Shown here: in pieces, positions 24,767 to 43,816 of the stretch | Numbering within the stretch: position 1 is the stretch's first letter | Layout: each line of letters starts with the position of its first letter | From: a virus | Taxonomy: Duplodnaviria; Caudoviricetes | DNA: 51,355 nt | Reading direction: 5' to 3' (one strand) | IMG/VR virus record: IMGVR_UViG_3300037755_000354 | Coordinates: 1-51,355 of that record | Position numbers and translations under genes: made by a program | The notes under the pieces: model-generated | Told to the model about the DNA's origin: nothing | Database searches by the model: none | What the model saw: only the letters and a program-made list of their open reading frames with translations

Positions 24767-26776
24767 ATGGAGCGGATGTATTCGGTTCTTCATGTGAAGG
24801 CCGTAGATGAAGAAAGGCGGCAGATCATAGGTGTGGCAACAACGCCGAGCCCTGATCGCGTTGGCGATATCGTCGAGCCGCTTGGCGTGAAATTCAAGAA
24901 CCCCTTGCCCCTGCTTTGGCAGCATCGAAGCAGTGAACCTGTCGGGTCGGTGAAATTCGACAAACCGACAAAGGACGGGATCACCTTCACCGCGAAGCTC
25001 CCCAACATCGAACGGCCTGGCAACCTCAAGGAGCGGATCGACGAGGCCTGGGAGAGCGTCAAGCACAAGCTTGTCACTGGCGTGTCGATCGGGTTCCGCG
25101 CCATCGAGCATGCCATGATGGAGGACGGCGGTATTCATTTTTTGAAAACCGAAGTCCTCGAGCTTTCCCTGGTGACGATCCCTGCACAGCAGGATGCGAC
25201 GATCCAGGCGATTAAATCCATCGATTCAGCGTTGCTGGCCGCGGCTGGCCGAAGCGACGCACACCGGACCGCTGAAGAGCGGACGTCCCTCGTATCGGGA
25301 ACCATTGTGAAATCCATTCCAAAGGGAAACCCGAGAATGACAAAGAAGACGATTTCGGAGCAGATCTCCGATTTTGAGGCCACGCGGCAGGCGAAAGCTG
25401 CGCGCATGGTCGAGATCATGGAAGATAGCGGCGCGAAAGGCGAAACGCTGGATGCCGAGCAGACGGAAGAGTATGACGGCCTTGCCGATGAGGTGAAGTC
25501 GATCGATGCCCACCTGAAGCGCTTGCGTGATCTGGAAAAGCAGAGCCTGAACACGGCCAAGGCCATCGACGGCAGCGATGCCGCGAGGGGCGCCGCCTCT
25601 CGGTCGAATGCAGTTCGCGTTTCGGTGCGCGGGCAGCGTCTTGAGCCTGGCATTGCGTTCACGCGCATTGCCAAGGTGAAGGCTCTGGCCAAGCTCGACA
25701 GTGATAGCGTTCGCGAAGTAGCCCGCGATCTCTATGGTGAAGACTCTCCGGTTTACGGCCACTTCGTCAAGGATGCGACCGGCGCCGCCAACACGACGAG
25801 TTCATCGTGGGCTGGCTCGCTCGTCGGTGATGAGACGTCGGCATTTGCCGATTTCGTCGAGTACCTTCGACCGATGACGATCCTTGGCAAGTTCGGCACG
25901 AATGGCGTTCCGAGCCTGCGGCGCGTGCCGTTCCGGACCGCGCTTATCGGTCAGGACTCCGGAGGCGAAGGTTATTGGGTCGGAGAGGGTGCGGCTAAGC
26001 CGTTGACCAAATTCGACTTCTCCCGCCGGACGCTTGATCCGTTGAAGGTTGCGAATATCGCGGTGGCAACGATGGAGCTGCTGCGCAATTCCAGCCCGTC
26101 TGCGGAAATGATCCTGCGTGATCAGCTCGCTGCAGCCTTGCGGGCGCGCATGGACACCGACTTCATCGATCCGACGAAAGCGGCATCCGCCGGCGTATCT
26201 CCGGCGTCGATCACGAATGGCGTTGTGGCCCTTGATTCCAGCGGCACGGATGCCGATGCAGTTCGCCAGGATGTCCAGAATCTGTTCAACGCGTTTATCG
26301 CCGCGAATAACGCGCCGACAAGCGGCGTATGGATCATGAAAGCGACGACGGCTTTGACGCTTTCGCTAATGATGAATGCGCTTGGCCAGCCCGAGTTCAC
26401 TGGCATCAACATGAACGGCGGAACGTTCTTTGGCCTGCCGGTGATCACGTCGGAGTTTGTCCCGGTCGAGCATACCTCGCCGACGGACAGCAATTACGTG
26501 ATCCTTGTGAACGCTTCGGACATCTACTTCGCGGATGACGGTGGCGTTTCCGTCGATATGTCTCAGGAAGCATCGCTGGAGATGTCATCCAATCCTGCGC
26601 ACGCCTCGTCCGGGATCAACTCCCCGGCAAGTTCGCAGGGTGCTTCGCTGGTCTCGCTCTGGCAGACCAACAGCGTCGGCTTCCGCGCAGAGCGGACACT
26701 GAACTGGCTGCGCCGCCGAGATACGTCGGTTCAGGTGCTTGGTGAGGTGCGCTGGTCTCTGGCTGCCGCAGCTTAG
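24767..26776 (+). CDS. Prohead protease fused to HK97-fold major capsid protein
   Basis: PLLWQH, GVSIGF, ELSLVTIPA protease motifs; delta-like coiled coil; WVGEGAAKP; SLWQTNSVGFRAER. Confidence 0.92.
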   Translation: MERMYSVLHVKAVDEERRQIIGVATTPSPDRVGDIVEPLGVKFKNPLPLLWQHRSSEPVGSVKFDKPTKDGITFTAKLPNIERPGNLKERIDEAWESVKHKLVTGVSIGFRAIEHAMMEDGGIHFLKTEVLELSLVTIPAQQDATIQAIKSIDSALLAAAGRSDAHRTAEERTSLVSGTIVKSIPKGNPRMTKKTISEQISDFEATRQAKAARMVEIMEDSGAKGETLDAEQTEEYDGLADEVKSIDAHLKRLRDLEKQSLNTAKAIDGSDAARGAASRSNAVRVSVRGQRLEPGIAFTRIAKVKALAKLDSDSVREVARDLYGEDSPVYGHFVKDATGAANTTSSSWAGSLVGDETSAFADFVEYLRPMTILGKFGTNGVPSLRRVPFRTALIGQDSGGEGYWVGEGAAKPLTKFDFSRRTLDPLKVANIAVATMELLRNSSPSAEMILRDQLAAALRARMDTDFIDPTKAASAGVSPASITNGVVALDSSGTDADAVRQDVQNLFNAFIAANNAPTSGVWIMKATTALTLSLMMNALGQPEFTGINMNGGTFFGLPVITSEFVPVEHTSPTDSNYVILVNASDIYFADDGGVSVDMSQEASLEMSSNPAHASSGINSPASSQGASLVSLWQTNSVGFRAERTLNWLRRRDTSVQVLGEVRWSLAAAA

Positions 26777-26799
26777 TGGGTTAATGACGTAGCAGGGGA

Positions 26800-26835
26800 A
26801 TGGGCTGCCACTCACGGGTGGTGGCCCATCTTTTT
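26800..26835 (+). terminator. Intrinsic terminator after the capsid gene
   Basis: ATGGGC...GCCCAT stem followed by a T-tract. Confidence 0.6.
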
Positions 26836-28641: not shown

Positions 28642-28654
28642 GGGGCAATCGAGA

Positions 28655-29653
28655 ATGAACAGGCACGATATCGAAAGCGTGATCGAAGCCGTCGCGCCAA
28701 CGATTACACGGTATGTCGAGGCGGCACTTGCACCGATGATGGCGCGCGTTGCTCAGCTTGAGGCGCGCCAGCTTGAGCATGGCAAGGATGGCGCGGGCGT
28801 GTCTGATGCCGTGATCGATCGCGATGGCGTGCTGATCCTGACATTGACGGACGGCCGGTCGTTGAAGCCAGGTGTGGTTGCCGGCAAGGATGGCGAGCCG
28901 GGGAAATATCCCGATCTCGAAGCGATTGCCGCGATGGTTCGCAAGGAAATCGAGCTGCATCTGCCTGACGCCGTTGCTGAGATCCCTGTGCAAAAAGGAG
29001 AGCCTGGCGAACCCGGCGCGCCTGGTCGTGACGCTGATCCCGAGTTCATCGTCAAGGCCGTCCATAACGAGGTTGCAAGCCAGCTTCCTGAAGCGGTGGC
29101 CGCAATCCCATTGCAGAAGGGTGATCCCGGCGCGCCTGGCAAGGACGCCGACATGGCGGCAATCGAGGCGATGATTGCGAGGGCGGTGCAGTCTATCGCT
29201 CGCGTCAAGGGCGATCCCGGTCAGGACGGCGTCAGCATTTCCGGTGTCTCGATCAACAGAGACGGGGATTTGTCCGTCACCATGTCTGATGGCAAAACGA
29301 AGGAGCTTGGGCGCGTGGTCGGGCGCGACGGCATCGGCTTCGATGATATGGAGGAAGTTCTTTCCGATGATGGCCGGCTGATCATTCGGCGCTACAAGCG
29401 CGGCGCGGAAACGAAAGAGTTTCATCACCGCGTCCCGATGATCATCGATCGCGGCGTCTATAGCGAAGAGCGCGAGTACGCCACAGGCGATGCCGTGACC
29501 TGGGGCGGCTCGCTCTGGATTGCGCAGGCGCCGACAGCGCAGAAGCCGGGGCAGTCCGACACATGGCGGCTTGCCGTGAAGCGCGGCCGTGACGGGAAAG
29601 ACGCGCCGGCGGTTGATCCGAAGCCGAAGACGAAGAGCGGAGCCGCGCAATGA
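28655..29653 (+). CDS. Head-associated protein with collagen-like G-x-y repeats
   Basis: Repeated LP.AVA.IP.QKG.PG.PG.DAD; C-terminal GDAVTWGGSLW...WRLAVKRGRDGKD. Confidence 0.75.
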   Translation: MNRHDIESVIEAVAPTITRYVEAALAPMMARVAQLEARQLEHGKDGAGVSDAVIDRDGVLILTLTDGRSLKPGVVAGKDGEPGKYPDLEAIAAMVRKEIELHLPDAVAEIPVQKGEPGEPGAPGRDADPEFIVKAVHNEVASQLPEAVAAIPLQKGDPGAPGKDADMAAIEAMIARAVQSIARVKGDPGQDGVSISGVSINRDGDLSVTMSDGKTKELGRVVGRDGIGFDDMEEVLSDDGRLIIRRYKRGAETKEFHHRVPMIIDRGVYSEEREYATGDAVTWGGSLWIAQAPTAQKPGQSDTWRLAVKRGRDGKDAPAVDPKPKTKSGAAQ

Positions 29654-30252
29654 ACGGCGTTCAGGTCGTGACCGCGCCAGCGCTTCCTGCGGTAACGCTC
29701 GCTGAAGCCAAGACGCACCTTGCGGTCGATACCGACGATTTTGATGCAATGATCGAGATGCTTGTTGCAGCGGCGACCGATCACGCCGAGTCCTTCATGG
29801 GCCGCGCGCTGGTCGAGCGAACGCTGGATTATTTTGTTGATGCATTCCCCGGTAATGGCGGCGCAATCCGCCTGCCGTTCCCGCCGCTCATTGCTGTGAC
29901 GGGCGTGTTCTACACCGATGCCGATGATGTCGAGCAGGAATTCACTGGCTTCGAGGCTGACGCCGCCAGCAAGCCGGCGCGGCTGTTCCTGACGTCGCCG
30001 AACTCGTGGCCGACGCCGCGCGACAGTGCCAATGCCGTTCGCGTGCGTTACCGGGCGGGTCACTCTGCCGTCAGCGGTTCGCCGCCAGCGCTTGACGGCA
30101 CGATACCGTCGGACCTGAAGGCGGCGATATTGCTGATGACCGGCACGCTGTTCGAGCTCCGCGAGACCGTCACGGAGATGTCCGCGAATATGGTGCCGTG
30201 GGGAGCTGACCAGCTTCTCCGCCGCCACAGGATCGAGCTTTCCGCCGCGTAA
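29650..30252 (+). CDS. Head-tail connector (gp6-like adaptor)
   Basis: VTLAEAKTHL, AESFMGRAL, IP.DLKAAILL. Confidence 0.85.
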   Translation: MNGVQVVTAPALPAVTLAEAKTHLAVDTDDFDAMIEMLVAAATDHAESFMGRALVERTLDYFVDAFPGNGGAIRLPFPPLIAVTGVFYTDADDVEQEFTGFEADAASKPARLFLTSPNSWPTPRDSANAVRVRYRAGHSAVSGSPPALDGTIPSDLKAAILLMTGTLFELRETVTEMSANMVPWGADQLLRRHRIELSAA

Positions 30253-30866
30253 TGCTGTTGGAGCGTGTCGAGCCGCGTTGGCAGGGCGAATGCTGCATCG
30301 TCGCAGCGCCTGGACCATCACTGACGCCGGAGATTGCCGAAGCCTGCCGCGGCGATCGCGTGATCTCGGTGAACGATGCCTATCGCCGGCTGCCGTTTGC
30401 CGATGTGCTTTATGCCTGCGATGCGAAGTGGTGGAATGTTCATGGTGATTGCAAAGGCTTTGCCGGTGAGAAGTGGTCCAGTCATGATGGACAGGGCAAC
30501 AAGAAGCTGAAAGAGGCCGAACTCTACAGCCTGAAGCTTGTGTGCGGTGAAAGCCGCAAGGGCTTTTCGCTCGATCCGGGGCGGATCCATTATGGCGGGA
30601 ATGGCGGCTTCCAGGCTGTCAATCTGGCGATCCTGTTTGGCGCGCGCCGGATTGTGCTCGTTGGCTTCGATATGCACGGTAGCCATTTCTTCGGGCCGCA
30701 TCCAGGCCCGCTGCGCAACACGCGGAACTTTGAGAAGTTTATCAATAGCTTCGGAGAAGCGGCAAGGATGCTGCCTGCACATATCAGGATTGTGAATGCA
30801 ACGCCGGGTTCGGCGTTGAAGTGTTTCCCGTTCGTGGACCTGGTTCCGACGCGGGAGGCCGCATGA
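30252..30866 (+). CDS. Maf/DUF115-like (sialyltransferase-type fold) putative glycosyltransferase
   Basis: IVAAPGPSL, ISVND, GNGGFQAVNLAILFGARRIVLVGFD, IVNAT. Confidence 0.65.
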   Translation: MLLERVEPRWQGECCIVAAPGPSLTPEIAEACRGDRVISVNDAYRRLPFADVLYACDAKWWNVHGDCKGFAGEKWSSHDGQGNKKLKEAELYSLKLVCGESRKGFSLDPGRIHYGGNGGFQAVNLAILFGARRIVLVGFDMHGSHFFGPHPGPLRNTRNFEKFINSFGEAARMLPAHIRIVNATPGSALKCFPFVDLVPTREAA

Positions 30867-31435
30867 GGCGTGATCGGCGGCTGGGGTTTTCAGGAAAGAG
30901 ATGGCCGCAACTTGTCAGCGAGCTCGACGCTTTTGTCGATCTACTCGCTGCCGAAGGGGTGCGGTCTTACTTGGAAATAGGGGCGCTGTATGGTGATACG
31001 TTTCATCATATCGGCATGTCGCTTCCAAAGGGTGCGCATCTTGTGGCTGCAGATTTACCGGGATGGAAGCGGGGGCAGCCCATCGGACGCCATGGCGGCA
31101 GCGGTGAATATCTGAAGGCAGCGGCGCGCGATCTCAAGAAGCGGGGGCGGGAAGCGCACATTATTTTTGGCGACAGTCACGACGCCGAGACCATTGCCGA
31201 GGTCAGCAAGCACGCGCCGTTTGATGCCATCATGATCGATGGGGATCACACGCCGAAGGGCGCAATGGCGGATTGGCAAGACTATGGCCAGATGGGGCGC
31301 ATCGTCGCGTTCCATGACATCGCCGGCATCCCTGATGTGACGAAGGTGTGGGAGACGGTTCGAAAAGGCAACCGGTGGAAGGAGATCATTTCCCCTGATC
31401 GCCAGGGCGGGATTGGGGTCATATGGAACGAATAA
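30863..31435 (+). CDS. Class I SAM methyltransferase (Methyltransf_24-like)
   Basis: YLEIGALYG, GDSH, FDAIMIDGDH, VAFHDI; ATGA overlap. Confidence 0.8.
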   Translation: MRRDRRLGFSGKRWPQLVSELDAFVDLLAAEGVRSYLEIGALYGDTFHHIGMSLPKGAHLVAADLPGWKRGQPIGRHGGSGEYLKAAARDLKKRGREAHIIFGDSHDAETIAEVSKHAPFDAIMIDGDHTPKGAMADWQDYGQMGRIVAFHDIAGIPDVTKVWETVRKGNRWKEIISPDRQGGIGVIWNE

Positions 31436-32151
31436 CGGTTGCGAGCTTCTACTGGCGCGACAACGACGACCGGTGCCAGAACGTTTATCAATACGGCAAT
31501 GACGATGTTGTGCTTCTCAGGAATCAGTTTCAGCGGCATCTGACGCGGCCTCATGAATTCGTTTGCGTTACGAATCGGCCCAGAGAGATTGACCCAAGCA
31601 TTCGCACCATCCCGCTTGACGAACGTTTGCGGGTTCGCGGCGGGCGGTATTTCAAGCTTGCAGTCTTCGGGAAGGACGCGGCGGAATTCTTCGGCGAGCG
31701 CATTTTGACGGCCGATCTGGATTCGGTCCTCACCAGAAACGCAGATCATCTCGTCGATCGCGAGGAAGACCTTGTGCTTTGGCGCAATCCCAATTGGGGG
31801 CTGAAGCGGCGCGCTTACTACAACACGAGCATCATGCTTGTTCGCGCTGGCACGCGCACTGAATTCTATGACCGGTTCGACTCTCAGCGCAGCCATGACG
31901 AAGCAGCGCGCGTAACCGGCTGGGGCGGCACGGACCAACGCTTCATCTCATGGATCGCCGGACGCAATGAGGCGCATTGGACGGCCGAAGACGGCATCTA
32001 TGGTGCCGGCAGGCTCGGCGATTACTGCCCCGGCATGGCGACGACTGTTCTGCCTGAAAATGCCTGTTTCGTGACATTCCCCGGTCGACGTCATCCGAAG
32101 ATGGCGAAGACGCAAGAGAAGCACCCATGGATTGTGAGCCACCGCCGATGA
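31423..32151 (+). CDS. GT-A fold glycosyltransferase (GT8-like)
   Basis: FVCVT, KLAVF, DLDSV (DxD), YNTSIM, DQRFIS, FPG..HP. Confidence 0.8.
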   Translation: MERITVASFYWRDNDDRCQNVYQYGNDDVVLLRNQFQRHLTRPHEFVCVTNRPREIDPSIRTIPLDERLRVRGGRYFKLAVFGKDAAEFFGERILTADLDSVLTRNADHLVDREEDLVLWRNPNWGLKRRAYYNTSIMLVRAGTRTEFYDRFDSQRSHDEAARVTGWGGTDQRFISWIAGRNEAHWTAEDGIYGAGRLGDYCPGMATTVLPENACFVTFPGRRHPKMAKTQEKHPWIVSHRR

Positions 32152-32738
32152 TTTCAGAACGTTCAAAAAAGATGCTTACCCATTACGTCGGATCTGTAGC
32201 CAGGGGCTATGACGCGCGGCGATCTAGTCAGGAAAAATGGAAGCGCGAGCAGGAAATTCTTTCCGGTATTATCGCGGCGCTACCCGCGGGATCGACAGCG
32301 CTTGATATCCCCTGCGGGACCGGCCGGCTGTTTCGGTTCTTCGCAGAACGCGGCGTGACGGTCACGGCGCTCGATATCAGCGATGACATGATCAGGGAAG
32401 CGAAGGCGAAGCACAAAAGCAGCGGCGGCGAGATCACGATCGGTCACGGCGATATCTTCAAGATCGACTTGCCGGATATGTCAGTCGATACTGCGTTCGC
32501 CATCCGGATCATGAACCGAATCGGCGGTGCTGATGTGCCGCGTGCGCTGGGGGAATTGCAGCGCGTGGCCAAGAGCCAGATTGTATTTAATCTTCGTGTC
32601 GACAGTGGGAACAGCCGTTATCGGCACCCGGTTGCAATGTCCGTCGTTCATGGATCGCTTGAGCCCGGGTGGCAGATCACGGCAGACCAGGAAATCCACG
32701 AGCCGGACTTCCGGATGATTACCCTGTCTCGGGATTGA
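32148..32738 (+). CDS. Class I SAM methyltransferase
   Basis: LDIPCGTGR, ALDISDDM, GDIF, ALGELQRV. Confidence 0.85.
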   Translation: MISERSKKMLTHYVGSVARGYDARRSSQEKWKREQEILSGIIAALPAGSTALDIPCGTGRLFRFFAERGVTVTALDISDDMIREAKAKHKSSGGEITIGHGDIFKIDLPDMSVDTAFAIRIMNRIGGADVPRALGELQRVAKSQIVFNLRVDSGNSRYRHPVAMSVVHGSLEPGWQITADQEIHEPDFRMITLSRD

Positions 32739-32741
32739 TCC

Positions 32742-33323
32742 ATGAATTGGCTGGACGTATGCGGCCCGCCCGCGGTCGGCAAGTCTACCTTGCTCGACGA
32801 TCTGTGGCCACCGCGCGGCATTCCGTACGATGGCGGCGGTTATCCTGATGAGTGGCTGGAGTTTCTGAGCGTCGCTTGGCGATTACTCGACGAAGTGACT
32901 GATCATCCGAGCCACCATAAATGCGCATCGATGATGAAGCGATCGTTTCAGAAGATGGCGACGGTTCGTCGGCGGAAAGATCGGCGCACATACATCCAGA
33001 CCGGGTTTGCCCAGCGCGGGCTCGGGCTCGGCTGGCGTCACAAGGATGCTGAAGCGGTCGCGGCGTTTTACCAGGTCATGCCCGTGTCGCTCGGCGTGGT
33101 GATTCTCAAAGCGCCGCTGGATGTTATCGAGCACAGGAACAGGATGCGCGACAAGCCGGACCGGTCGCACATGGTTCCCGGCATGATCCGGCCGCTCGAG
33201 GTCGCGGAAGACGTCCTGCGCGCGCGCGGCGTTCCGGTTGCCGTTCTGGATATGACCAGGCCAATAGAGCGGAACCGTGAAAAGCTTGCGGCTTTCGCCA
33301 AGGGCGCCGGAGGAACGAAGTGA
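32742..33323 (+). CDS. P-loop kinase (NMP-kinase-like)
   Basis: N-terminal GPPAVGKST; R-x-x-x-R lid-like segment. Confidence 0.65.
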   Translation: MNWLDVCGPPAVGKSTLLDDLWPPRGIPYDGGGYPDEWLEFLSVAWRLLDEVTDHPSHHKCASMMKRSFQKMATVRRRKDRRTYIQTGFAQRGLGLGWRHKDAEAVAAFYQVMPVSLGVVILKAPLDVIEHRNRMRDKPDRSHMVPGMIRPLEVAEDVLRARGVPVAVLDMTRPIERNREKLAAFAKGAGGTK

Positions 33324-33832
33324 ACCCGCTGGGGCTCGGCGAGCGGTCTGTGCAGCTTTTGTTGAGTGCTTCGCCCGATCAGCCGATCGATCCGCATCAT
33401 TTCGTGACGCCGGCGCGGCTCGATATCGTCGTCAAGCTGATGTTTTTCGAGTGCGTCAAGAATGCCCACATCTATCGCCGTCACATCGAAGGCCGCTCCG
33501 GCGGCCGCGAAAAGCGAAGTTGGAAAATGTCGGTGCAGGATTACATCACGGCAGCCGGCGATCTGATGAGGTCCATGCGCGCAAACGGCTTCGATCCGAG
33601 TGAGCCGGTTGAGCTTGGATGCAATCTCGGCCTGCGCGGCGGCGCGCATCGCATTGCCTGCGCCCTGGCTCTGGACATCACAATACGTGTCAGGATCGCA
33701 GACAAGCCCGGCAACGCCGCTTTATGGGATGAGGCGTACATGCGCAGGGCCGGCATGACTGATCAGGATCTGGCGCCGGCTCTGGCGCGATTTAAAAGGC
33801 TTCAGGATGCCGCGCGCCTGCGTCTTGGTTAA
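33320..33832 (+). CDS. ParB/Srx-like domain protein
   Basis: SMRANGFDP..PV...GGAHRIACALAL. Confidence 0.6.
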   Translation: MNPLGLGERSVQLLLSASPDQPIDPHHFVTPARLDIVVKLMFFECVKNAHIYRRHIEGRSGGREKRSWKMSVQDYITAAGDLMRSMRANGFDPSEPVELGCNLGLRGGAHRIACALALDITIRVRIADKPGNAALWDEAYMRRAGMTDQDLAPALARFKRLQDAARLRLG

Positions 33833-34613
33833 TCCACGCATGTCGCACCAGCATTCATGGGCTGAGGCGTTCGTGGCCGGGTTGCGCCGCCATGGGTGGC
33901 GGGCGGATCTGAGCCACAAGCTTGTCACGTCCGATCTTGTGGCGATGTGGTCAACCCGCAGGCAGGACGTGATCAAGCAGGCGCGAAGCGAGGTGCGGGA
34001 GATCGTTACTGCCGAGCGCGGCTATATGGGCGATCGCAAGCATTATTGCAGCGTGAGCTTCGGCGGCGAACTCAATGGGCGTGCGGAGTTCCGGGGGGCA
34101 TTCGGTGACACGTCACGCTTCGAAAGATTGTTCGCGCATCTGATGCAGCCGTGGAATCGCAAGCCGGACGGCCATGCCCTGATCATGGGGCAGGTCGATG
34201 GCGACATGAGCACGCGCGGCGTGAATTTGACGCGCTGGTATCGCGAAACGCGCCAAGCTCTGGAAGCGCGCGGCTGGAAGGTCAAGTTCCGCCCACATCC
34301 CTTGGCCGCTGGCGGCGAAGCGTTCGCGGCATATCGGCAAAGGCAGCAGGCGCATCAACTCGATCTGGCGGCCGACTTTGAAACGGCGGGCGTGGTTGTC
34401 ACCTATAATTCAAACTCCGGTGTGGATGCCGTTCTCGCCGGCAAGCCGGTCATCGCAATGGATGAGGGTGCAATGGCCTGGCCTGTGGCCGGACACCAGG
34501 TTGATGAGATCATCACGCCGGATCGGACGGCTTGGGCGCATCGGCTTGCCTGGTGCCAATGGACAAAGGCCGAGATGGCCAGCGGCGAATGTATTGAGGC
34601 GATCGGGTTATGA
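33807..34613 (+). CDS. KpsS/KpsC-like (beta-Kdo transferase-type) glycosyltransferase
   Basis: GQVDGD (QxxxD), FRPHP (HP motif), VVTYNSNSGVDAVLAGKPV. Confidence 0.7.
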   Translation: MPRACVLVNPRMSHQHSWAEAFVAGLRRHGWRADLSHKLVTSDLVAMWSTRRQDVIKQARSEVREIVTAERGYMGDRKHYCSVSFGGELNGRAEFRGAFGDTSRFERLFAHLMQPWNRKPDGHALIMGQVDGDMSTRGVNLTRWYRETRQALEARGWKVKFRPHPLAAGGEAFAAYRQRQQAHQLDLAADFETAGVVVTYNSNSGVDAVLAGKPVIAMDEGAMAWPVAGHQVDEIITPDRTAWAHRLAWCQWTKAEMASGECIEAIGL

Positions 34614-34870
34614 GAGAAAAAGGTACAGGAATTTTGCCGATCACTGCGGAATTGCTTGAGCAAGTGGCGCTTCGCTCATTTTTGCCTCGGTCATACAACG
34701 TGATCGGATCTGCAAAATCAAAGCTCCCCGGAATGGTTCTGCTTATCGTTGAATCCGATGACATCGCAGGCCACGGTCATTTTCTGACCTGTGAGACCCA
34801 GGATGCAGGAAGCACTCGAACGATTCGCGTAGTGCTTGAACGTCCGAGTCAAGAGACGGCCGAGCTGTGA
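34610..34870 (+). CDS. Hypothetical protein
   Basis: ATGA-coupled to the upstream gene. Confidence 0.55.
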   Translation: MREKGTGILPITAELLEQVALRSFLPRSYNVIGSAKSKLPGMVLLIVESDDIAGHGHFLTCETQDAGSTRTIRVVLERPSQETAEL

Positions 34871-35037
34871 AATCCCATGTTTTTAAATGTCCGAAATGCG
34901 GCTTCGTGCAGGTCTATTCCAGCATGTGCGCAGAGACGGGGCAGGTCGGCAGCAATGCGAAGGAAAGGGCGGACAAGCCTTGCCCGAATGATGGCTCTGA
35001 GCTGCTGCCGGTTTTTGACCAGAAAGAGTTGCAATGA
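34867..35037 (+). CDS. 56-aa Zn-ribbon-like protein (not in the ORF track)
   Basis: MKSHVFKCPKCGF...KPCPNDG...; GTGA and ATGA overlaps with both neighbours. Confidence 0.65.
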   Translation: MKSHVFKCPKCGFVQVYSSMCAETGQVGSNAKERADKPCPNDGSELLPVFDQKELQ

Positions 35038-35390
35038 GCTCGGTCGGCAGCCTCAACCGGCGCGTAACATTCCAGCGCTCGACGGTGAGCTACAACGATT
35101 TTAACGAGCCTGTCGAGACGTGGGCAACGCTAGCGGAAGTGTGGGTGAATCGGCGCGACGCGAGCGCTGGCGAAAGCTACCGGGCGCAGGAGGTAGGCGG
35201 GCAGCTCTCGATCCGTTTCACGATCCGCTACAGCTCAGACGTGGCGACGATCAACCCGCGCGACCGCGTTCTCTACAATGGCGGCGTCTACAACATCACC
35301 GGCGTTCGTGAGACGAAGCGCAATCGCTGGCTTGAGGTGGATGCGGTCATTCAGCCGGACGTTGCGGCGGAGGAAGACGGTTCACCTTGA
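35034..35390 (+). CDS. Head closure protein (SPP1 gp16-like)
   Basis: GSLNRRVTFQ, FTIRY, DRVLY.G.VYNI. Confidence 0.85.
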   Translation: MSSVGSLNRRVTFQRSTVSYNDFNEPVETWATLAEVWVNRRDASAGESYRAQEVGGQLSIRFTIRYSSDVATINPRDRVLYNGGVYNITGVRETKRNRWLEVDAVIQPDVAAEEDGSP

Positions 35391-36484: not shown

Positions 36485-36901
36485 ATGGCTGCAAATGTTG
36501 GCCGCACGTCGCTTCTGTATTGGGGCAATGAATCCCCGCAGCCGCTCGTTGCGGGAATCCGTGAGCTCGGCTTTTCGGTCGGCGGGGAGGCGGTGGACAT
36601 CACGAATAATGATTCCGCCGGATGGCGGACTCTGCTCGATGCCGCCGGCGTCAACAGCATCGACATTCCGATTTCCGGCGTGCTTGTCGATGATACGCTG
36701 CGCGCCGATGCAATCAATGGGGCGACGATCGGTTCCGGCTTGCGCATGCAGGATGCCACGCTGGAGCGCGCGGACGGCAGCAGGTTGAGCGGGAACTGGT
36801 ATCTTCAAGGCTACTCCGAAACCGGCTCACATGATGGTGAAATCACCTTCGAGGCGACGCTTATGTCCAACGGTCCCATCGCTTACACGCCGGCCGCGTA
36901 A
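36485..36901 (+). CDS. Major tail tube protein
   Basis: VDITNNDSAGWRTLL, FEATLMSNG; RBS aggag. Confidence 0.85.
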   Translation: MAANVGRTSLLYWGNESPQPLVAGIRELGFSVGGEAVDITNNDSAGWRTLLDAAGVNSIDIPISGVLVDDTLRADAINGATIGSGLRMQDATLERADGSRLSGNWYLQGYSETGSHDGEITFEATLMSNGPIAYTPAA

Positions 36902-39385: not shown

Positions 39386-40225
39386 ATGAGTGTTGTGATT
39401 TCCGGCAGCCTGGTCCTCTCGGATAGCGTTTCGGGCGGCGGGATCATCAACGCGGATAATCCGCTCATTGGTTATCGCAATCTCGTCACCAGTTCGAACG
39501 TCACGGCGACGTCTGAAGATCCAGATCATCCCGCGTCCAACGTCGCCAATCCGTCAACGGCATTGCGCTGGCAGGGCCTCGGCGGCTCGCCTGCCGAAGA
39601 CGAGTATCTGACCTTTGCGCTCGATACCGTGGAGCTGGTCGATTACCTGGCCGTCGCGCGCCACAATTTCTACAGCGCACAAATCGCGGTTTCGGTCGAG
39701 GTCCTCGACCAGTCGACCAGTCCGGACAGCTGGGACGAGCTCGTCGCGCCGGGCATCCCGTCGAATGATGGGCCGCTGTTGTTTCGGTTCACGCCGCAGG
39801 GCATCGCTTCCATTCGGCTCAGGATGCAGCCGGGGGCGGCAGTCCCGCGCGCTGCCGTGGTTTATTCCGGCGCGCTGCTCGTCCTGCAGCGCCGCATCTA
39901 TGTCGGTCATACGCCGGTCAATTACGGCACGCAGCTCAGTGTCGCCAATCACCGCAGCATCAGTGGCGATTTTCTCGGGCGTATCGTTCTGTCGCGCAAG
40001 ACGCGGACGCAGGTGGCATTGGAGAACCTGACGCCGGCGTGGTACCGGACCTATCTCGAACCGTTTCGCGCCGCGGCGGAGGACCTGCCGTTCTTCTTCG
40101 CGTGGCGACCGTCCTCGTATCCTTACGAAGTCGGCTTCGTCTGGGTCGCCAACGATCCGCAGCCGCAGAACCAATTGCCGAACGGCATGGTCAGCTTCTC
40201 GATGGACGTCGAAGGCGTGACGTGA
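39386..40225 (+). CDS. Distal tail (Dit-like) protein
   Basis: Follows TMP; PFFFAWRP..YP. Confidence 0.7.
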   Translation: MSVVISGSLVLSDSVSGGGIINADNPLIGYRNLVTSSNVTATSEDPDHPASNVANPSTALRWQGLGGSPAEDEYLTFALDTVELVDYLAVARHNFYSAQIAVSVEVLDQSTSPDSWDELVAPGIPSNDGPLLFRFTPQGIASIRLRMQPGAAVPRAAVVYSGALLVLQRRIYVGHTPVNYGTQLSVANHRSISGDFLGRIVLSRKTRTQVALENLTPAWYRTYLEPFRAAAEDLPFFFAWRPSSYPYEVGFVWVANDPQPQNQLPNGMVSFSMDVEGVT

Positions 40226-42588
40226 CGAAGTCGCTCACCTACGTCGAGATCGACATCCCATCATTCGTGCCGGAGTCGCCCGAAGCGATCCAGACTTGGC
40301 GCTTCGCCATGCCTGCCGATTACCTGCCGCCGGAGATCGATTGTATCCCATCGATCGACTCCGTCAGCTTCACGCCGGCGCGGATCTCGCTTGGCAAGGA
40401 TCTCGGCGAACGCGCCTCGCTCAGGATCTCGCTGCGCGATCACAGGCACATCTTTAACGGTGAGCCTTTTGACCAAGGCACTTTCTTCGGCAAGTGGCGC
40501 GGGCGCTACGGCACGAAGCTGCGCGGGCGCGAGCTGCGCCTGATCCGCGGGCAGGTCGGCCAGACCATCGATCAGATGGATACGCGTTATTATGTGATCG
40601 AGAATACAGACGGGCCGGATTTCAATGGCGTTTACACGATCGAAGCCAAGGATATCCTGAAGCTTGCCGATGAGGACCGCGCGCAAGCTCCGGCGCTATC
40701 GAACGGCTCGCTCGCCGGCTCGATCGATAATGCGGCAGGATCTCTGACGCTCAGTCCGGTCGGCATCGGCGATCTGGAATATCCGGCGTCCGGCTGGGTC
40801 TGCCTTGGCGGTAAGGAAGTCGTCACCTTCACCCGGTCGAGCGACACGCTGACGATCACGCGGGCGCAGTTCGGCACGGTGGCGCAAGGCCACGACGCCG
40901 GCGATCGGGTGCAGCTCGTGCTGCGCTACACCGGCGATGATGCGGCAGACATCATTTATGATCTGCTGACCAACTACGCGGGCGTTCCGGCCGAGTATAT
41001 CAATCTGACGGACTGGCAGCAGGAGACCGAGGATTTTCTCGGCGTGATCTACGCGCGCACGATCACCGAGCCGACCAGCGTGCATAAGGTGGTTTCTGGG
41101 CTGATCGAGGAGGCGGCGCTTGCACTCTGGTGGGATGACCGTGCGCAGCGCTTGCGGCTCAATGTGTTGCGCGAGATCTCGACGGATACGGAAACGTTCG
41201 GCCATGACCGGATTCTTGAGGGATCTCTGAAGGTCAAGGAACAGCCGGCCAAACGCATCAGCCAGATCTGGAGCTATTACGGCCAGCGTGATCCGACCGA
41301 CAGCGCGGCCAATGAGGACAACTTTCGCGCGGTGCTGGCCGATGTCGATCTGGAGCGCGAGGCCGAATACGGGTCAGCCGAGATTCGCAAGGTTCAAGGG
41401 AAATGGGTCGAGACTGAGACTGCGGCGACGCGGCTCAATTCGATTCAGCTAAGCCGGTTTCGTGATCCGCCGCGATCCTTCGCGTTCGAGGTTTTCCGCG
41501 ACGTGGTGATCACGCCTGCGTCTGGGTATCAACTGCAATGGTGGGGCAGTCAGGACGAGACCGGCGTTGAGGTTCCGGTTTCGGTCCAGATCACGCACGT
41601 TCGTCTTGAGCCTGATCGCGTTTATGTCGAAGCCGAGGAAATGCTTGCCTCTGGCGTCGTGGCGCTCGTCAACGTCGTGTTTCTCACGATGACCGGCAGC
41701 GTTCTTTCGTGGCAGGTGCCGGACAATTGGAACGATGCTGACAATTCAGTGCGATGCATTGGTGCGGGCGGTGGGGGTTGTGGCGACGCCAGTTCGAGCG
41801 GCGGCAAGGGCGGCGGCGGCGGGGCGTTCTCGCGATCGACGAATCTTGCGCTTGCCGCATCTCCGATGCCGTCAATTTCTTACCGCGTTGGTATGGGCGG
41901 CGTTGGCGGCGTCGATAACAACGGCACCAATGGCGGCGATACATGGTTTGGCGCGGCGTCGTTCGGTAGCGCTCTCGTCGGCGCGCGCGGCGGGCAAGGC
42001 GGCGTCGGTCGCACGGGCAACGGGCAAGGTGGGCAGGCATCAAGCGGCATCGGCGACCTTCGCAACTCTGGCGGCAATGGCGGCGATGGCGCTCCACGAG
42101 GTGAAACCCGCGCGGGCGGTGGCGGCGGCGGCGGCGCTGGCGGGCCGAATGGCGACGGCGGCAACGGCGGCAATCTGACTTCAGTTAGTCAAGATGCTGG
42201 CAGTGGCGGCGGTGGCGCGGATGACGGGCAAGACGGCGCTCTATCAAGTGATGCAACTGGCGGCGATGGCGGTCACAACCGTTTCAATTTCGGGGGCGGG
42301 ACCAGCACCACACCTTCAGGACAGGAAGGCGGCGGCGGTCGTGGTGGTAACGGATTAGTCATTGGCGGTCCTGGCGGTAGCGGCGAGCAGATCTGGACAC
42401 AAACGGTGGCGCCGATCATCTCCGCTGGTCCTGGGGGCGGCGGCGGTGGCGGTGGGAACGATGCAAATGGCGGTGTGGGCGGCTTGTACGGCGGCGGCGG
42501 CGGCGGCGGCAACGATGCGACCGGTGGCAACGGCGCAAATGGAATCATCGTGATCATATGGCGTGAAGCCGAGGGATCGCCGGCATGA
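40222..42588 (+). CDS. Tail tip/hub protein with glycine-rich C-terminal domain
   Basis: GTG start overlapping the upstream stop; long Gly-rich region; position. Confidence 0.75.
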   Translation: MTKSLTYVEIDIPSFVPESPEAIQTWRFAMPADYLPPEIDCIPSIDSVSFTPARISLGKDLGERASLRISLRDHRHIFNGEPFDQGTFFGKWRGRYGTKLRGRELRLIRGQVGQTIDQMDTRYYVIENTDGPDFNGVYTIEAKDILKLADEDRAQAPALSNGSLAGSIDNAAGSLTLSPVGIGDLEYPASGWVCLGGKEVVTFTRSSDTLTITRAQFGTVAQGHDAGDRVQLVLRYTGDDAADIIYDLLTNYAGVPAEYINLTDWQQETEDFLGVIYARTITEPTSVHKVVSGLIEEAALALWWDDRAQRLRLNVLREISTDTETFGHDRILEGSLKVKEQPAKRISQIWSYYGQRDPTDSAANEDNFRAVLADVDLEREAEYGSAEIRKVQGKWVETETAATRLNSIQLSRFRDPPRSFAFEVFRDVVITPASGYQLQWWGSQDETGVEVPVSVQITHVRLEPDRVYVEAEEMLASGVVALVNVVFLTMTGSVLSWQVPDNWNDADNSVRCIGAGGGGCGDASSSGGKGGGGGAFSRSTNLALAASPMPSISYRVGMGGVGGVDNNGTNGGDTWFGAASFGSALVGARGGQGGVGRTGNGQGGQASSGIGDLRNSGGNGGDGAPRGETRAGGGGGGGAGGPNGDGGNGGNLTSVSQDAGSGGGGADDGQDGALSSDATGGDGGHNRFNFGGGTSTTPSGQEGGGGRGGNGLVIGGPGGSGEQIWTQTVAPIISAGPGGGGGGGGNDANGGVGGLYGGGGGGGNDATGGNGANGIIVIIWREAEGSPA

Positions 42589-42604
42589 TTGGAGATTTTG
42601 AATA

Positions 42605-43816
42605 ATGGTTTTCGCGAGATGGCAATCAACGATTGTCGACGAAGCCGGCAACATTCAGCCGAACGCTCAAGTTCGTGTGCAGCGCGAGGTTGCAGGCGCT
42701 CCGCTGGCGACGATCTATTCCGACCGTGACGGGGCTTCGCCGCTCGGCAACCCCATGACAGCCGACACAGAGGGCTTTGCAGCGTTTCATGCGGCTGGCG
42801 GGGCTTACCGTATCACGGCGACGAAAGGCGGCTTCTCGCGCGTCTGGCGGTATGTCGCGATTGGGACGGCGCAGGAGCTTGATGAAACGGATGGCTCCAT
42901 CTCTTTGCAGCAAAATGTTGATGCCGGGTACGGGCTGACATTCGAAAGCGAGACATCTGCGCCGCCTTCGGCTGGTGCTATACGCTTCAACAATGCCGAC
43001 TTGAGCGCGGCGACAGAGGCTTATGTGAGCGTCGAGAATCTCGGCGGCTCCGATATCGAGGCGCGGCTTCTGGAACTGTTCGACGCGGCGCGGACGGTGA
43101 AGGATACGTTCTCGATTGCCGACCCTGCGAGCAACGCGCAGGCTTCCTGGCAGATCGATGGCGCGGCGTTGGTGGGCTCGCCGGGCGATTATGTCACGCT
43201 GACGATCAGCGCTCATGCCGGCGAGACATCGTTCACCGATAACGAACGCGTGAATTTCCAGCCGAGCCGGGCGGGCGCGGATGGCGGCGACGGTGAGGAC
43301 GGGCTGTTTGACGGTACTGAAACGCAAGTAACAGCGCGCAGTGGCGATCTATTGCCGTTTCAGGATGTTTCCGACAGCAATAATCCGAAACGCGGCACGG
43401 CGCAAAGCGTAGCGGAAACGGCGCGCGTTGAAATCGTGTTCATGCCGTTCGATCTGGTAACGGATGTTGAGACTGGCGACGGTGCGGGCGGTGTTTTCTT
43501 CCGTGTTCCGGCATGGATGAGCGGCTTCAATATCACAGCGGTTGCCGCCGCGAACGGTGCGGCGGGCACGGGCACCGGCACAACGACCATTCAGCTTCGC
43601 AATGTCACGCAAGCAGCAGACATTCTTTCCACGCCAATAACGATTGACAGCACGGAAACGGACAGCAGCACAGCGGCAGCGGCAGCAGTGATCAACGCGA
43701 GTGAAGATGATTTGACGACGGGCGATCTGATCCGCGTAGACGTTGACGCCATACCGGACGGCGATGCGCCTGTCGGGCTGATCGTTTCGATCACGGCAGA
43801 AAGACCGGCAAGCTGA
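42605..43816 (+). CDS. Tail fibre / receptor-binding structural protein
   Basis: N-terminal IYSDRDG..PLGNP...G.A.F domain; acidic, beta-rich. Confidence 0.65.
   Translation: MVFARWQSTIVDEAGNIQPNAQVRVQREVAGAPLATIYSDRDGASPLGNPMTADTEGFAAFHAAGGAYRITATKGGFSRVWRYVAIGTAQELDETDGSISLQQNVDAGYGLTFESETSAPPSAGAIRFNNADLSAATEAYVSVENLGGSDIEARLLELFDAARTVKDTFSIADPASNAQASWQIDGAALVGSPGDYVTLTISAHAGETSFTDNERVNFQPSRAGADGGDGEDGLFDGTETQVTARSGDLLPFQDVSDSNNPKRGTAQSVAETARVEIVFMPFDLVTDVETGDGAGGVFFRVPAWMSGFNITAVAAANGAAGTGTGTTTIQLRNVTQAADILSTPITIDSTETDSSTAAAAAVINASEDDLTTGDLIRVDVDAIPDGDAPVGLIVSITAERPAS

What the first reader, a model, noticed from the sequence alone, without database searches (positions are those of the whole stretch)
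26474..43183. Recurring Ser-Pro motifs in outward-facing virion proteins: possible acceptor sequon for the cassette
Seen: SP occurs in linker-like segments or C-terminal tails of the capsid (EHTSPTD 26477, GINSPAS 26621), adaptor (VSGSPPA 30079), head closure (ends EEDGSP* 35382), tail tube (GNESPQP 36533), Dit (LGGSPAE 39587, QSTSPDS 39719), hub (VPESPEA 40276, LAASPMP 41860, ends EAEGSPA* 42577) and fibre (LVGSPGD 43178). My hand count is about 18 SP in ~2600 aa of these proteins, against 1 in the 640-aa internal tape measure and none in gp10 or the terminator. The enrichment is modest (terminase has 3 in 622 aa) and some SPs may be ancestral. Inference: short (G/T/E/N/A)SP loops were added as O-glycosylation sites to give a virion-wide glycan coat.
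Basis: partly seen in the sequence, partly recalled or inferred. Interest (0 to 1): 0.85.

Follow-up and report, generated by a model that had tools for sequence, protein, structure and literature searches.

The report
Ser-Pro loops and phage capsid glycosyltransferase
The Ser-Pro motifs in this phage's particle proteins are real but barely more frequent than chance; a few sit in short added loops that, in related phages, occur together with a flagellin-glycosylase-like gene, so those few may be sugar-attachment sites, which nobody has yet tested chemically.

Summary
The window is a complete 51-kb siphophage genome. All 11 quoted motifs lie at the stated coordinates, and the count is right: 18 SP in 2,595 aa.

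The excess is weak. It is 18 observed against 10.1 expected, rank 8 of 185 dipeptides. For all 15 structural proteins it is 24 against 16.5.

SP is not a general sequon:
- MCP S443 and S478 and hub S178 also occur in relatives without the glycosyltransferase.
- S28 lies in the prohead-protease domain.
- Relatives with the gene show no overall SP excess.

A subset is more interesting. The capsid site at 26477 sits in a variable loop. Among 143 distinct capsid homologues, a short Ser/Thr-containing insertion there accompanies gene c1 (30252-30866, with a Maf/CstII/MptE-like fold):
- 41 of 43 c1-positive capsids have it, against 6 of 48 c1-negative ones.
- Phylogenetically independent pairs go 6-7 the same way and 0 the opposite way (p about 0.02).
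- Only 12 of the 43 loops contain SP. The usual form is x-D-S/T-x-G.

The SP insertions in the distal tail protein show the same trend (6/14 vs 0/8; 9/14 vs 1/8), but it is not significant.

Earlier notes of this scan reported similar SP/GSP loops with Maf-like genes on other DNA. No chemistry exists.

The parts
24767..26776 (+). Prohead protease - scaffold - major capsid protein fusion (669 aa). SP at residues 28, 327, 443, 478, 571 and 619.
   Evidence: Pfam Peptidase_S78 (residues 46-151) and Phage_capsid (394-602). The model of residues 281-669 matches HK97-fold capsids such as Bxb1 (E 2e-16) and HK97. SP sites.
26465..26500 (+). Variable MCP loop VEHTSPTDSNYV (residues 567-578; Ser571 codon at 26477). 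This is the candidate acceptor loop linked to c1.
   Evidence: It lies between strands 277-281 and 296-302 of the model, with block pLDDT 75-81. A short S/T insertion is present here in 41/43 c1-positive and 6/48 c1-negative capsids. Independent pairs go 6-7 the same way and 0 the opposite way.
26612..26629 (+). Six-residue MCP insertion GINSPA (Ser619 codon at 26621).
   Evidence: It was absent from the 67 homologues and from 23 of the 24 relatives printed. Only the closest relative L096 shares it, as QTDSPA. More than 80% of the 52 c1-negative rows are gapped here. It lies in model segment 332-345 with pLDDT below 50.
29650..30252 (+). gp6-like head-tail adaptor. SP at Ser116 (29995) and Ser144 (30079).
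   Evidence: Pfam Phage_connect_1. SP is present at the Ser144 position in 3/6 c1-positive and 0/4 c1-negative homologues. Ser116 is found in the window only.
30252..30866 (+). c1: small Maf / CstII / MptE-fold glycosyltransferase-like protein (204 aa).
   Evidence: phrog_4603 'alpha-2,3-sialyltransferase', E 2.6e-37. Pfam MptE-like scores only 19 bits, below the 34.6-bit cut-off. In a profile search against PDB, 7 of 8 weak hits are CstII (E about 0.5). The model has pLDDT 89.6. Foldseek matches: MptE HPPK 8sd5 (E 4e-5), CstII 1ro7 (TM 0.55), Maf 5mu5 (TM 0.66).
30821..34870 (+). Rest of the cassette: c2 Methyltransf_24 (30821-31435), c3 GT-A-like glycosyltransferase (31423-32151), c4 class I methyltransferase (32127-32738), c5 P-loop kinase-like AAA_33 (32742-33323), c6 unknown (33320-33832), c7 Capsule_synth-like lead (33807-34613), c8 unknown (34610-34870).
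   Evidence: Pfam and PHROGs. c3 matches phrog_1962 glycosyltransferase, E 9e-10. c7 matches PF05159 at E 0.042, below the cut-off. The nearest Atlas clusters are 81-100% viral.
35034..35390 (+). Head completion (head closure) protein. It ends in the C-terminal tail EDGSP (35373-35387; Ser117 codon at 35382).
   Evidence: Pfam Phage_HCP. The tail is shared only with L083 (...EQDGSP), whose locus carries c2, c3 and c7. It is absent from the other 4 c1-positive homologues and the 1 c1-negative homologue.
36485..36901 (+). Tail tube protein, with SP at Ser17 (36533).
   Evidence: Pfam Phage_tail_2. SP is present in 5/7 c1-positive and 0/1 c1-negative homologues, within a 2-4 residue insertion.
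39386..40225 (+). Distal tail protein (named by position). SP at Ser68 (39587, in a 3-residue 'GSP' insertion) and Ser112 (39719).
   Evidence: phrog_11633. Ser68 SP: 6/14 c1-positive vs 0/8 c1-negative. Ser112 SP: 9/14 vs 1/8. Independent pairs go 2-3 the same way and 0 the opposite way, not significant.
40222..42588 (+). Tail hub / host-specificity-like protein with a Gly-rich C-terminal half. SP at Ser19 (40276), Ser178 (40753), Ser547 (41860) and in the C-terminal tail EGSPA (Ser786, 42577).
   Evidence: phrog_11439 and Gly_rich_2. GTG start. Ser19: 7/11 c1-positive vs 1/7 c1-negative. Ser178: 8/12 vs 3/7, part of the conserved LSPxGI motif. The C-terminal tail is shared only with L202/L082 and L203/L084.
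42605..43816 (+). Putative fibre. SP at Ser45 (42737) and Ser192 (43178).
   Evidence: No family match. Ser192 SP: 3/7 c1-positive vs 0/5 c1-negative. Ser45 is found in the window only.

Best explanation
The phage carries a late-operon sugar cassette. Its key enzyme for this question is c1, a small Maf/CstII/MptE-fold transferase. I infer that c1 O-glycosylates a Ser or Thr in short loops that have been inserted into virion proteins. The firmest case is the loop of the major capsid protein at residues 567-578 (Ser571, nt 26477). c3 and c7 (glycosyltransferase-like), the two methyltransferases and the kinase-like protein may extend or decorate the sugar.

Ser-Pro is not the recognition signal. 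It is one local form of these loops: S-P-x-D/E-G in some lineages, x-D-S/T-x-G in most. Of the 18 SP sites, only the lineage-specific insertions and tails are candidate acceptors. These are MCP 26477 and 26621, Dit 39587 and 39719, tube 36533, hub 40276, and perhaps the tails at 35382 and 42577. The others are ordinary conserved structure: MCP S28, S327, S443 and S478, and hub S178.

Shown here: the motifs, the insertions, the fold of c1, and the co-occurrence of c1 with the capsid loop.
Inferred: that c1 is a protein glycosyltransferase, that the loop faces outward, and that any sugar is attached.
For: 1. c1 is glycosyltransferase-like: phrog_4603, E 2.6e-37. Its confident model (pLDDT 89.6) matches MptE, CstII (TM 0.55) and Maf (TM 0.66).
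2. Among 143 distinct capsid C-domains, c1 was found in 43 and excluded in 48 (at least 7 kb downstream without it). A short Ser/Thr insertion in the loop occurs in 41/43 against 6/48. Phylogenetically independent pairs go 6-7 the same way, 0 the opposite way and 2-3 unchanged; sign test p 0.016-0.031.
3. Whole-record searches with the c1 profile found nothing in 4 host genomes or in 4 virus records used as negatives. They recovered c1 at E about 1e-76 in 2 positive controls.
4. SP inside the loop: 12/43 c1-positive against 0/48 c1-negative.
5. In the four-residue insertions of c1-positive capsids, the third residue reads Ser or Thr in nearly every row of the printed tree (my reading, not a separate count).
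6. The window and its closest relative L096 (which has c1, c2 and c3) share two MCP insertions, both containing SP.
7. Tail proteins show the same direction: Dit S68 6/14 vs 0/8; Dit S112 9/14 vs 1/8; hub S19 7/11 vs 1/7; adaptor S144 3/6 vs 0/4. GSP observed/expected in tail proteins is 2.64 in 11 c1-positive records against 1.19 in 8 c1-negative records.
8. SP is concentrated in window-lineage insertions: 6 of 17 SP touch an insertion, against 311 of 2,308 dipeptide positions. Fisher p = 0.019.
9. There is a precedent for phage-encoded glycosylation of capsid and tail tube in mycobacteriophages. I saw it only as passages in citing papers.
Against: - There is no chemical evidence of any modification.
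- c1 misses the Pfam MptE-like cut-off (19 against 34.6 bits). Its best Foldseek hit is a pyrophosphokinase (MptE), not a transferase. Its profile hits to CstII are not significant (E about 0.5).
- The raw SP excess is weak and the protein set was selected after the fact.
- There is no global SP excess in c1-positive phages: head/neck genes 1.01 against 1.07. The tail-gene differences are not significant (p 0.18 for SP, 0.14 for GSP), and some c1-positive records are SP-poor (L229 at 0.20, L232 at 0.54).
- The SP-specific association rests on only 2-4 independent pairs at the MCP loop (p 0.125-0.5) and 2-3 at Dit.
- Three c1-free phages keep a typical loop (L026, L062, L102), confirmed c1-free over their whole records. 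One c1-positive phage lacks the loop (L137).
- The head-closure SP tail is absent from the other 4 c1-positive homologues.
- The c1 subtype and the SP-type loop may simply be inherited together. An AU test does not reject a single capsid clade for the window, L096, L010 and L025.
- Outward exposure of the loop was not established; the model gives only its position between two strands.
- c1 could act on another substrate, for example the collagen-like protein encoded just upstream.
Confidence: 0.4

Rival explanations
1. Nothing special. The SP dipeptides are ordinary structural features (helix N-caps, turns, flexible tails) plus sampling noise. The cassette modifies something else, such as a host envelope glycan, the collagen-like head protein or a small molecule. 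The link between c1 and the capsid loop reflects joint inheritance of neighbouring genes.
For: - SP ranks only 8th of 185 and 11th of 266 dipeptides.
- MCP S443 and S478 and hub S178 are conserved in c1-negative phages. S327 and S443 precede helices in the model.
- There is no global SP excess in c1-positive phages.
- c1 lies only 3-5 kb from the capsid gene in most loci, so linkage is expected.
- The AU test allows common descent of the SP loop together with the c1 subtype.
- Some phages have the loop without c1.
Against: - The independent-pairs test controls for shared ancestry on the capsid tree and still gives 6-7 against 0.
- At least 14 changes of c1 state are spread over the capsid tree.
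- The inserted loop keeps a Ser/Thr at the same position in very different lineages.
- The same direction is seen in an unlinked protein, Dit, which is encoded about 9 kb downstream of c1.
Confidence: 0.35
2. One reading: (G/T/E/N/A)-S-P is the sequon, and most of the 18 sites across capsid, neck and tail are glycosylated, giving a virion-wide glycan coat.
For: - GSP occurs 6 times against 1.6 expected in structural proteins and is not enriched elsewhere.
- GSP is 2.6-fold over-represented in tail proteins of c1-positive relatives, against 1.2-fold in c1-negative ones.
- SP insertions or tails occur in six different virion proteins.
- Earlier notes of this scan report SP/GSP loops with Maf-like genes in other phages. 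These are leads only.
Against: - 31 of 43 c1-positive capsids have the loop without SP.
- Several SP sites are ancestral or lie in the protease domain.
- There is no global SP excess in c1-positive phages.
- The per-locus tests are not significant.
Confidence: 0.12
3. The inserted Ser/Thr loops are targets of a different modification or interaction. Possibilities include phosphorylation by the kinase-like c5, methylation-dependent chemistry, or docking of a decoration protein. c1 would then be an accessory to that process.
For: - The cassette encodes a P-loop kinase-like protein and two methyltransferases.
- The best Foldseek hit of c1 is a pyrophosphokinase, MptE.
Against: - c5 and the methyltransferases are absent from most c1-positive loci, whereas c1 alone tracks the loop.
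- c3 and c7 are glycosyltransferase-like.
Confidence: 0.08

Closest known systems
Virion glycosylation of mycobacteriophages (Che8 / Corndog type; Freeman et al. 2023, Cell Host Microbe). The paper is not held. I know it only from passages in PMC11600133, PMC12894461 and PMC12582341.
   Same: Phage-encoded glycosyltransferases sit next to a methyltransferase gene and are reported to modify capsid and tail tube proteins. Here too there are several glycosyltransferase-like genes and two methyltransferases, and they lie inside the head-tail operon.
   Different: The hosts are Gram-negative Alphaproteobacteria or other Pseudomonadota, judging by prophage relatives. The enzyme that tracks the capsid loop has a Maf/CstII/MptE fold. 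I did not test homology to the mycobacteriophage enzymes because no sequences were at hand. Which residues are modified in the mycobacteriophages is not stated in the passages I saw.
Maf (motility accessory factor, PF01973/DUF115) flagellin O-glycosyltransferases, e.g. Magnetospirillum magneticum Maf, PDB 5mu5
   Same: The c1 model superposes on the Maf catalytic domain with TM 0.66 normalised to c1. From my own knowledge, not from a call: Maf enzymes add nonulosonic acids to Ser/Thr of a surface-exposed, self-assembling structural protein, with no strict sequon.
   Different: c1 has only 204 aa, against 632 for Maf, so it lacks Maf's flanking domains. It does not reach the Pfam cut-off. Its presumed acceptor is a capsid protein rather than flagellin. 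The sugar donor is unknown, and no nonulosonate synthesis genes were recognised in the cassette.
Campylobacter jejuni CstII (GT42 sialyltransferase, PDB 1ro7)
   Same: The fold match has TM 0.55. Two collinear motifs (G-P-S-L near the N-terminus, and S-G...G...I.L.G.D) align in the weak profile hits. The PHROG family of c1 carries a sialyltransferase label.
   Different: CstII sialylates lipooligosaccharide, not protein. The sequence similarity is not significant (E about 0.5).
Earlier notes of this scan on other phages: SP / GSP loops tracking Maf-like genes (e1-5361153, e1-5886585, e1-5878076, e1-5965084, e1-5378945)
   Same: They report the same kind of motif (Gly-Ser-Pro or Ser-Pro in optional loops of outer virion proteins) and the same kind of enzyme.
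   Different: Those are unverified AI notes on other DNA, several of them on jumbo phages with 10-20-fold GSP excess. Here the excess is small (GSP about 3.7-fold, SP about 1.5-fold). My test shows that the conserved feature of the capsid loop is the Ser/Thr, not the Pro.

Membership tests
PF01973 MptE-like / Maf (DUF115) superfamily (c1) | Sequence match to the Pfam model above its gathering score | tested here: not met
   19.0 bits against a cut-off of 34.6. Only residues 111-141 match.
PF01973 MptE-like / Maf (DUF115) superfamily (c1) | Same fold as solved members (MptE, Maf) and the related GT42 CstII | tested here: met
   The model has pLDDT 89.6. Foldseek: 8sd5 MptE HPPK (E 4e-5, TM 0.45-0.49), 1ro7 CstII (E 5e-4, TM 0.55), 5mu5 Maf (E 1.5e-3, TM 0.66).
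PF01973 MptE-like / Maf (DUF115) superfamily (c1) | Transfers a CMP-activated sugar to Ser/Thr of a protein | not testable with these tools
   No biochemical data. MptE itself is a pyrophosphokinase, so the fold does not fix the chemistry.
Phage-encoded virion O-glycosylation (mycobacteriophage type) | Phage genome encodes glycosyltransferases, with a methyltransferase, expressed with the virion genes | tested here: met
   c1, c3 and c7 (glycosyltransferase-like) and two methyltransferases lie between the adaptor and head-closure genes on the same strand. Expression itself was not tested.
Phage-encoded virion O-glycosylation (mycobacteriophage type) | Capsid and/or tail tube subunits carry covalently bound glycans | not testable with these tools
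   The genome is uncultured and no proteomic data exist.
Sequon-directed glycosylation (SP as the sequon) | Motif over-represented in target proteins beyond composition and multiple testing | tested here: inconclusive
   SP: 18 against 10.1 (rank 8 of 185 dipeptides) and 24 against 16.5 (rank 11 of 266). GSP: 6 against 1.6, p = 0.0045.
Sequon-directed glycosylation (SP as the sequon) | Motif co-occurs with the enzyme across relatives and is absent without it | tested here: inconclusive
   - Site level: MCP loop 12/43 vs 0/48; Dit S68 6/14 vs 0/8; Dit S112 9/14 vs 1/8. Only 2-4 independent pairs.
- Global level: SP observed/expected 1.01 vs 1.07 in head/neck genes, and 1.09 vs 0.78 in tail genes, p = 0.18.
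Sequon-directed glycosylation (SP as the sequon) | The motif, including Pro, is required at acceptor sites | tested here: not met
   31 of 43 c1-positive capsids have the loop with Ser/Thr but without Pro. This is comparative evidence only.

The most novel reading that the evidence does not exclude
A family of small Maf/CstII-fold transferases, widespread in siphophages and prophages of Pseudomonadota, co-evolves with a 4-8-residue Ser/Thr loop inserted at one fixed position of the HK97-fold capsid protein. The loop has the form x-D-S/T-x-G or S-P-x-D/E-G. Similar short insertions occur in tail proteins. Together, enzyme and loop would form a portable, genetically encoded tag-and-enzyme pair for sugar-coating phage particles of Gram-negative hosts.
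Probability: 0.35. Interest if true: 0.75.

Novelty: new variant of a known kind. Interest (0 to 1): 0.55.

Why it matters
Phage-encoded glycosylation of virions is so far documented experimentally in mycobacteriophages, where the citing passages I read say it weakens the neutralising antibody response. If a small Maf-like enzyme and a short capsid loop form a matched pair in many phages of Gram-negative bacteria, three things follow:
- Virion glycosylation would be far more widespread than is known.
- A concrete residue (Ser571 of this capsid, or the equivalent Ser/Thr in cultured prophage relatives) could be tested directly.
- The loop-enzyme pair could serve as a transferable tag for decorating phage or encapsulin-like particles.

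The negative result matters too. Raw dipeptide counts in a hand-picked set of virion proteins are a poor guide. Here they mix ancient structural SP motifs with a few candidate sites.

Tried and rejected
1. Hub-anchored relatives as cassette-free controls. I first read L085 and L090 as cassette-free and concluded that the tube, Dit and hub SPs were ancestral. This was wrong. L090's record carries c1 upstream of the locus, and L082's record carries it too. L085 has three c7-like ORFs, and its record is only 48% complete. I replaced this test with a Dit-anchored scan and whole-record c1 searches.
2. Co-transfer of c1 subtype and SP loop. In the c1 tree, the window, L096 and L010 form a supported clade (96) and all have S-P loops. 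But an AU test on a 40-row subset of the 143 capsid rows does not reject these capsids also being one clade (p-AU 0.53). There is therefore no evidence for independent co-transfer.
3. Head-closure C-terminal SP tail as a general c1 correlate. It is shared only with L083, so I rejected it.
4. Portal SP counts show no obvious difference between c1-positive and c1-negative loci (by inspection; not tested formally).
5. A search for other capsid columns where SP tracks c1 found only the loop column (9/43 vs 0/48). The other columns are similar in both groups.
6. An alignment-based scan of genome contigs failed because no stretch was conserved enough. I used the single protein instead.
7. Exposure of the loop. 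The tools gave me no model coordinates, so I could not decide between the inside and outside of the capsid.
8. Literature. Five searches (listings and abstract starts only) returned no paper on a Maf-like enzyme paired with a capsid loop. The Freeman 2023 paper is not held. Its supplements, and those of the other papers, were not seen and may contain site maps that bear on the comparison.
9. NCBIfam gave nothing for c1, c3, c6, c7 or c8.

Full report
WHAT THE WINDOW IS. The window is a complete virus record of 51,355 bases with direct terminal repeats. On the + strand it carries a classical siphophage late operon:
- large terminase, 22887-24755
- a fused prohead protease-scaffold-major capsid protein (MCP), 24767-26776
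- portal, 27223-28641
- a collagen-like protein, 28619-29653
- gp6-like adaptor, 29650-30252
- an eight-gene cassette, 30252-34870
- head completion protein, 35034-35390
- HK97-gp10-like protein, tail completion protein and tail tube (36485-36901)
- a chaperone-position gene and the tape measure (37462-39384)
- three distal tail genes, 39386-43816.

The names Dit, hub and fibre are positional. The closest relative found is a contig of a Dichotomicrobium MAG (L096, capsid domain 82-83% identical). Other relatives are prophages of Rhizobium, Bosea, Sphingopyxis, a Brucella (ex-Ochrobactrum) species and other Pseudomonadota.

THE OBSERVATION.
- All 11 quoted motifs are present, with the Ser codon at exactly the stated coordinate.
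- The hand count is right: 18 SP in 2,595 aa of the seven named proteins; 1 in the tape measure; 0 in gp10 and the terminator; 3 in the terminase.
- Composition predicts 10.05, a ratio of 1.79. The set was chosen after the fact and leaves out five structural proteins with no SP.
- All 15 structural proteins give 24 against 16.4-16.5 (ratio 1.46, permutation p = 0.037). Non-structural proteins give 20 against 24.0, and cassette proteins 2 against 3.9.
- Among all dipeptides with at least 5 expected, SP ranks 8th of 185 and 11th of 266. LR, NG, TI and ET are as deviant. So the dipeptide excess is real but unremarkable.
- Earlier notes of this scan on other phages pointed to Gly-Ser-Pro, so I tested GSP as a directed hypothesis. 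It occurs 6 times against 1.6 expected in structural proteins (p = 0.0045) and 2 against 2.25 elsewhere.

THE CASSETTE.
- c1 (30252-30866) matches phrog_4603, labelled alpha-2,3-sialyltransferase, at E 2.6e-37. It matches Pfam MptE-like only weakly, below the cut-off.
- A profile of 23 c1 homologues hits PDB weakly; 7 of the 8 hits are CstII (E about 0.5).
- The AlphaFold model is confident (pLDDT 89.6). It matches MptE pyrophosphokinase (E 4e-5), CstII (TM 0.55) and Maf (TM 0.66).
- c3 is a phage GT-A-like glycosyltransferase (phrog_1962, E 9e-10). Its nearest Atlas clusters are viral, with GT8/Nucleotid_trans as leads, and one structural neighbour is fused to an MptE-like domain.
- c7 gives only leads to Capsule_synth (E 0.042).
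- c2 and c4 are methyltransferases and c5 is a P-loop kinase-like protein.
- So a sugar cassette is plausible, but no classical protein O-glycosyltransferase family is met.

HOMOLOGUES WITH AND WITHOUT THE ENZYME: THE CAPSID.
- I collected capsid-anchored loci from viral contigs (80), species genomes (22) and metagenomes (80). I located c1, c2, c3 and c7 with HMMs built from the loci. I kept 143 distinct, complete capsid C-domains, including the window's.
- c1 normally lies just after the collagen-like or adaptor gene, and sometimes directly after the capsid gene.
- Of the six SP in the capsid fusion:
  - S28 is in the protease domain.
  - S443 (SSPSAE) and S478 (VSPASIT) are ancient and common without c1: 29/48 and 34/48 c1-negative rows.
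  - S327 and S443 sit immediately before helices in the model.
  - S571 (EHTSPTD) and S619 (GINSPAS) are different. S571 lies in a hypervariable loop between two strands of the HK97-fold domain. S619 lies in a 6-residue insertion shared only with L096 (QTDSPA).
- At the S571 loop, 41 of 43 c1-positive capsids carry a short (3-8 residue) insertion containing Ser/Thr. Only 6 of 48 capsids do so among those with at least 7 kb of downstream sequence and no c1.
- On a tree built without the loop columns there are 14 changes of c1 state. Phylogenetically independent pairs go 6-7 the same way, 0 the other way and 2-3 unchanged (sign test p 0.016-0.031).
- Whole-record searches confirmed the absence of c1 in 4 bacterial genomes and 4 virus records used as negatives. 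They recovered c1 in 2 positive controls.
- The typical insertion is x-D-S/T-x-G (TDSDG, TDSTG, DETEG, AVSAG and so on). Only 12 of 43 c1-positive loops contain SP (GGSPTDG, TGSPFDG, QDSPGEG, HTSPTDS, VGSPVSN), against 0 of 48 c1-negative. That contrast rests on 2-4 independent pairs only (p 0.125-0.5).
- Exceptions:
  - L137 has c1 but no loop.
  - L026, L062 and L102 have a typical loop but no c1 anywhere in their records.
  - c3-only loci mostly lack the insertion.

HOMOLOGUES WITH AND WITHOUT THE ENZYME: NECK AND TAIL.
- My first comparison used hub-anchored loci and was misleading. Two supposed cassette-free relatives carry c1 or c7-like genes elsewhere.
- A Dit-anchored scan (54 loci) with whole-record c1 searches gave 8 c1-negative records, 71-100% complete.
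- Site by site, SP present in c1-positive against c1-negative homologues:
  - Dit S68 (a 3-residue G/A/S-S-P insertion): 6/14 vs 0/8
  - Dit S112: 9/14 vs 1/8
  - hub S19: 7/11 vs 1/7
  - hub S178: 8/12 vs 3/7 (the conserved LSPxGI motif, so ancestral)
  - hub S547: 3/12 vs 0/6
  - tube S17: 5/7 vs 0/1
  - adaptor S144: 3/6 vs 0/4
  - fibre S192: 3/7 vs 0/5
- The C-terminal tails EDGSP (head closure) and EGSPA (hub) are shared only with the nearest relatives (L083; L202 and L203). The head-closure tail is absent from 4 other c1-positive homologues.
- Independent pairs on the Dit tree go 2-3 the same way and 0 the opposite way, too few for significance.
- In the window, 6 of 17 SP touch a window-lineage insertion, although such positions make up only 311 of 2,308. 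Fisher p = 0.019, tied 5th of 107 dipeptides.

GLOBAL TESTS.
- If SP were a general sequon, c1-bearing phages should be SP-rich in virion proteins. They are not.
- In ORFs downstream of the capsid gene (GT-cassette hits removed), SP observed/expected is 1.01 in 30 c1-positive loci and 1.07 in 48 c1-negative loci. GSP is 1.31 against 0.98 (p = 0.12).
- In tail-module proteins homologous to the window's, SP is 1.09 (11 c1-positive) against 0.78 (8 c1-negative), p = 0.18. GSP is 2.64 (23 against 8.7) against 1.19 (7 against 5.9), p = 0.14 per locus.
- Some c1-positive phages are SP-poor.

INTERPRETATION.
A Maf/CstII-fold enzyme co-occurs with a Ser/Thr-bearing insertion at one fixed position of the capsid protein. 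In this phage's lineage that insertion, and several other short insertions or tails in virion proteins, happen to contain Ser-Pro.
- I infer that these loops are acceptor sites for c1 and that Pro is a lineage flavour rather than the determinant.
- The c1 phylogeny groups the window with L096 and L010, all with S-P loops. The capsid tree does not exclude common descent, so this adds nothing independent.
- The main rival, nearly as likely, is that the SP motifs are ordinary and the c1-loop association reflects linkage or a different function.

COMPARISON WITH WHAT IS KNOWN.
- Phage-encoded glycosylation of capsid and tail tube is established for mycobacteriophages. I know this only from passages in citing papers; the primary paper and all supplements were unavailable.
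- Maf enzymes glycosylate flagellin Ser/Thr without a strict sequon. This is my own knowledge; PDB 5mu5 appeared as a fold match.
- Five literature searches found no description of a Maf-like enzyme paired with a capsid loop (listings only).
- Within this scan, similar SP/GSP-loop findings with Maf-like genes were noted on other DNA. They agree with, but do not independently support, the present reading.

VERDICT.
SP is not a virion-wide sequon, and about half of the listed sites are ordinary conserved structure.
- Novelty: a new variant of a known kind.
- Nothing here shows that a sugar is attached.

Noticed in passing
window 1691-2668 (-): A separate GT2-family glycosyltransferase gene (Pfam Glycos_transf_2, E 2.7e-15) lies in the leftward early/lysogeny-side region, away from the late cassette. 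It may be a host-surface conversion gene rather than part of virion modification.
   Followed up: partly
window 28619-29653 (+): A collagen-like protein (G-x-P/G-D-P-G repeats) with a C-terminal domain that matches phage 'portal'/tail-fibre PHROGs (phrog_1289, E 2e-29). It contains no SP. It is conserved next to the portal in nearly all relatives, and c1 usually follows it. It could be a head fibre and an alternative c1 substrate.
   Followed up: partly
L013, L016, L018, L021, L029, L052, L053, L062, L065, L074, L075, L077 (capsid region): In these relatives the protease and capsid reading frames are separated by 1-4 in-frame stops around residue 180-250. Protease and capsid are therefore separate genes there, but fused in the window.
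   Followed up: partly
L054, L060, L180, L183, L185 (downstream of capsid): These loci carry two c1 paralogues each. The Atlas also holds a 482-aa viral cluster in which a c3-like domain is fused to an MptE-like domain.
   Followed up: no
L107, L110, L151, L158, L159, L171: The c3-type glycosyltransferase gene lies directly downstream of the capsid gene in several c1-less lineages, whose capsids lack the loop insertion. c3 may have a different acceptor.
   Followed up: no
window 40222-42588 (+), residues about 517-788: The C-terminal half of the hub protein is an extreme Gly-rich region (GGG occurs 29 times against 7.5 expected in structural proteins), with many lineage-specific insertions relative to c1-negative homologues.
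   Followed up: no
L085/L205 (positions 1-1991), L250: Tandem arrays of three to four c7-like (Capsule_synth-like) ORFs lie upstream of the adaptor/head-closure genes in some tail-module relatives.
   Followed up: no
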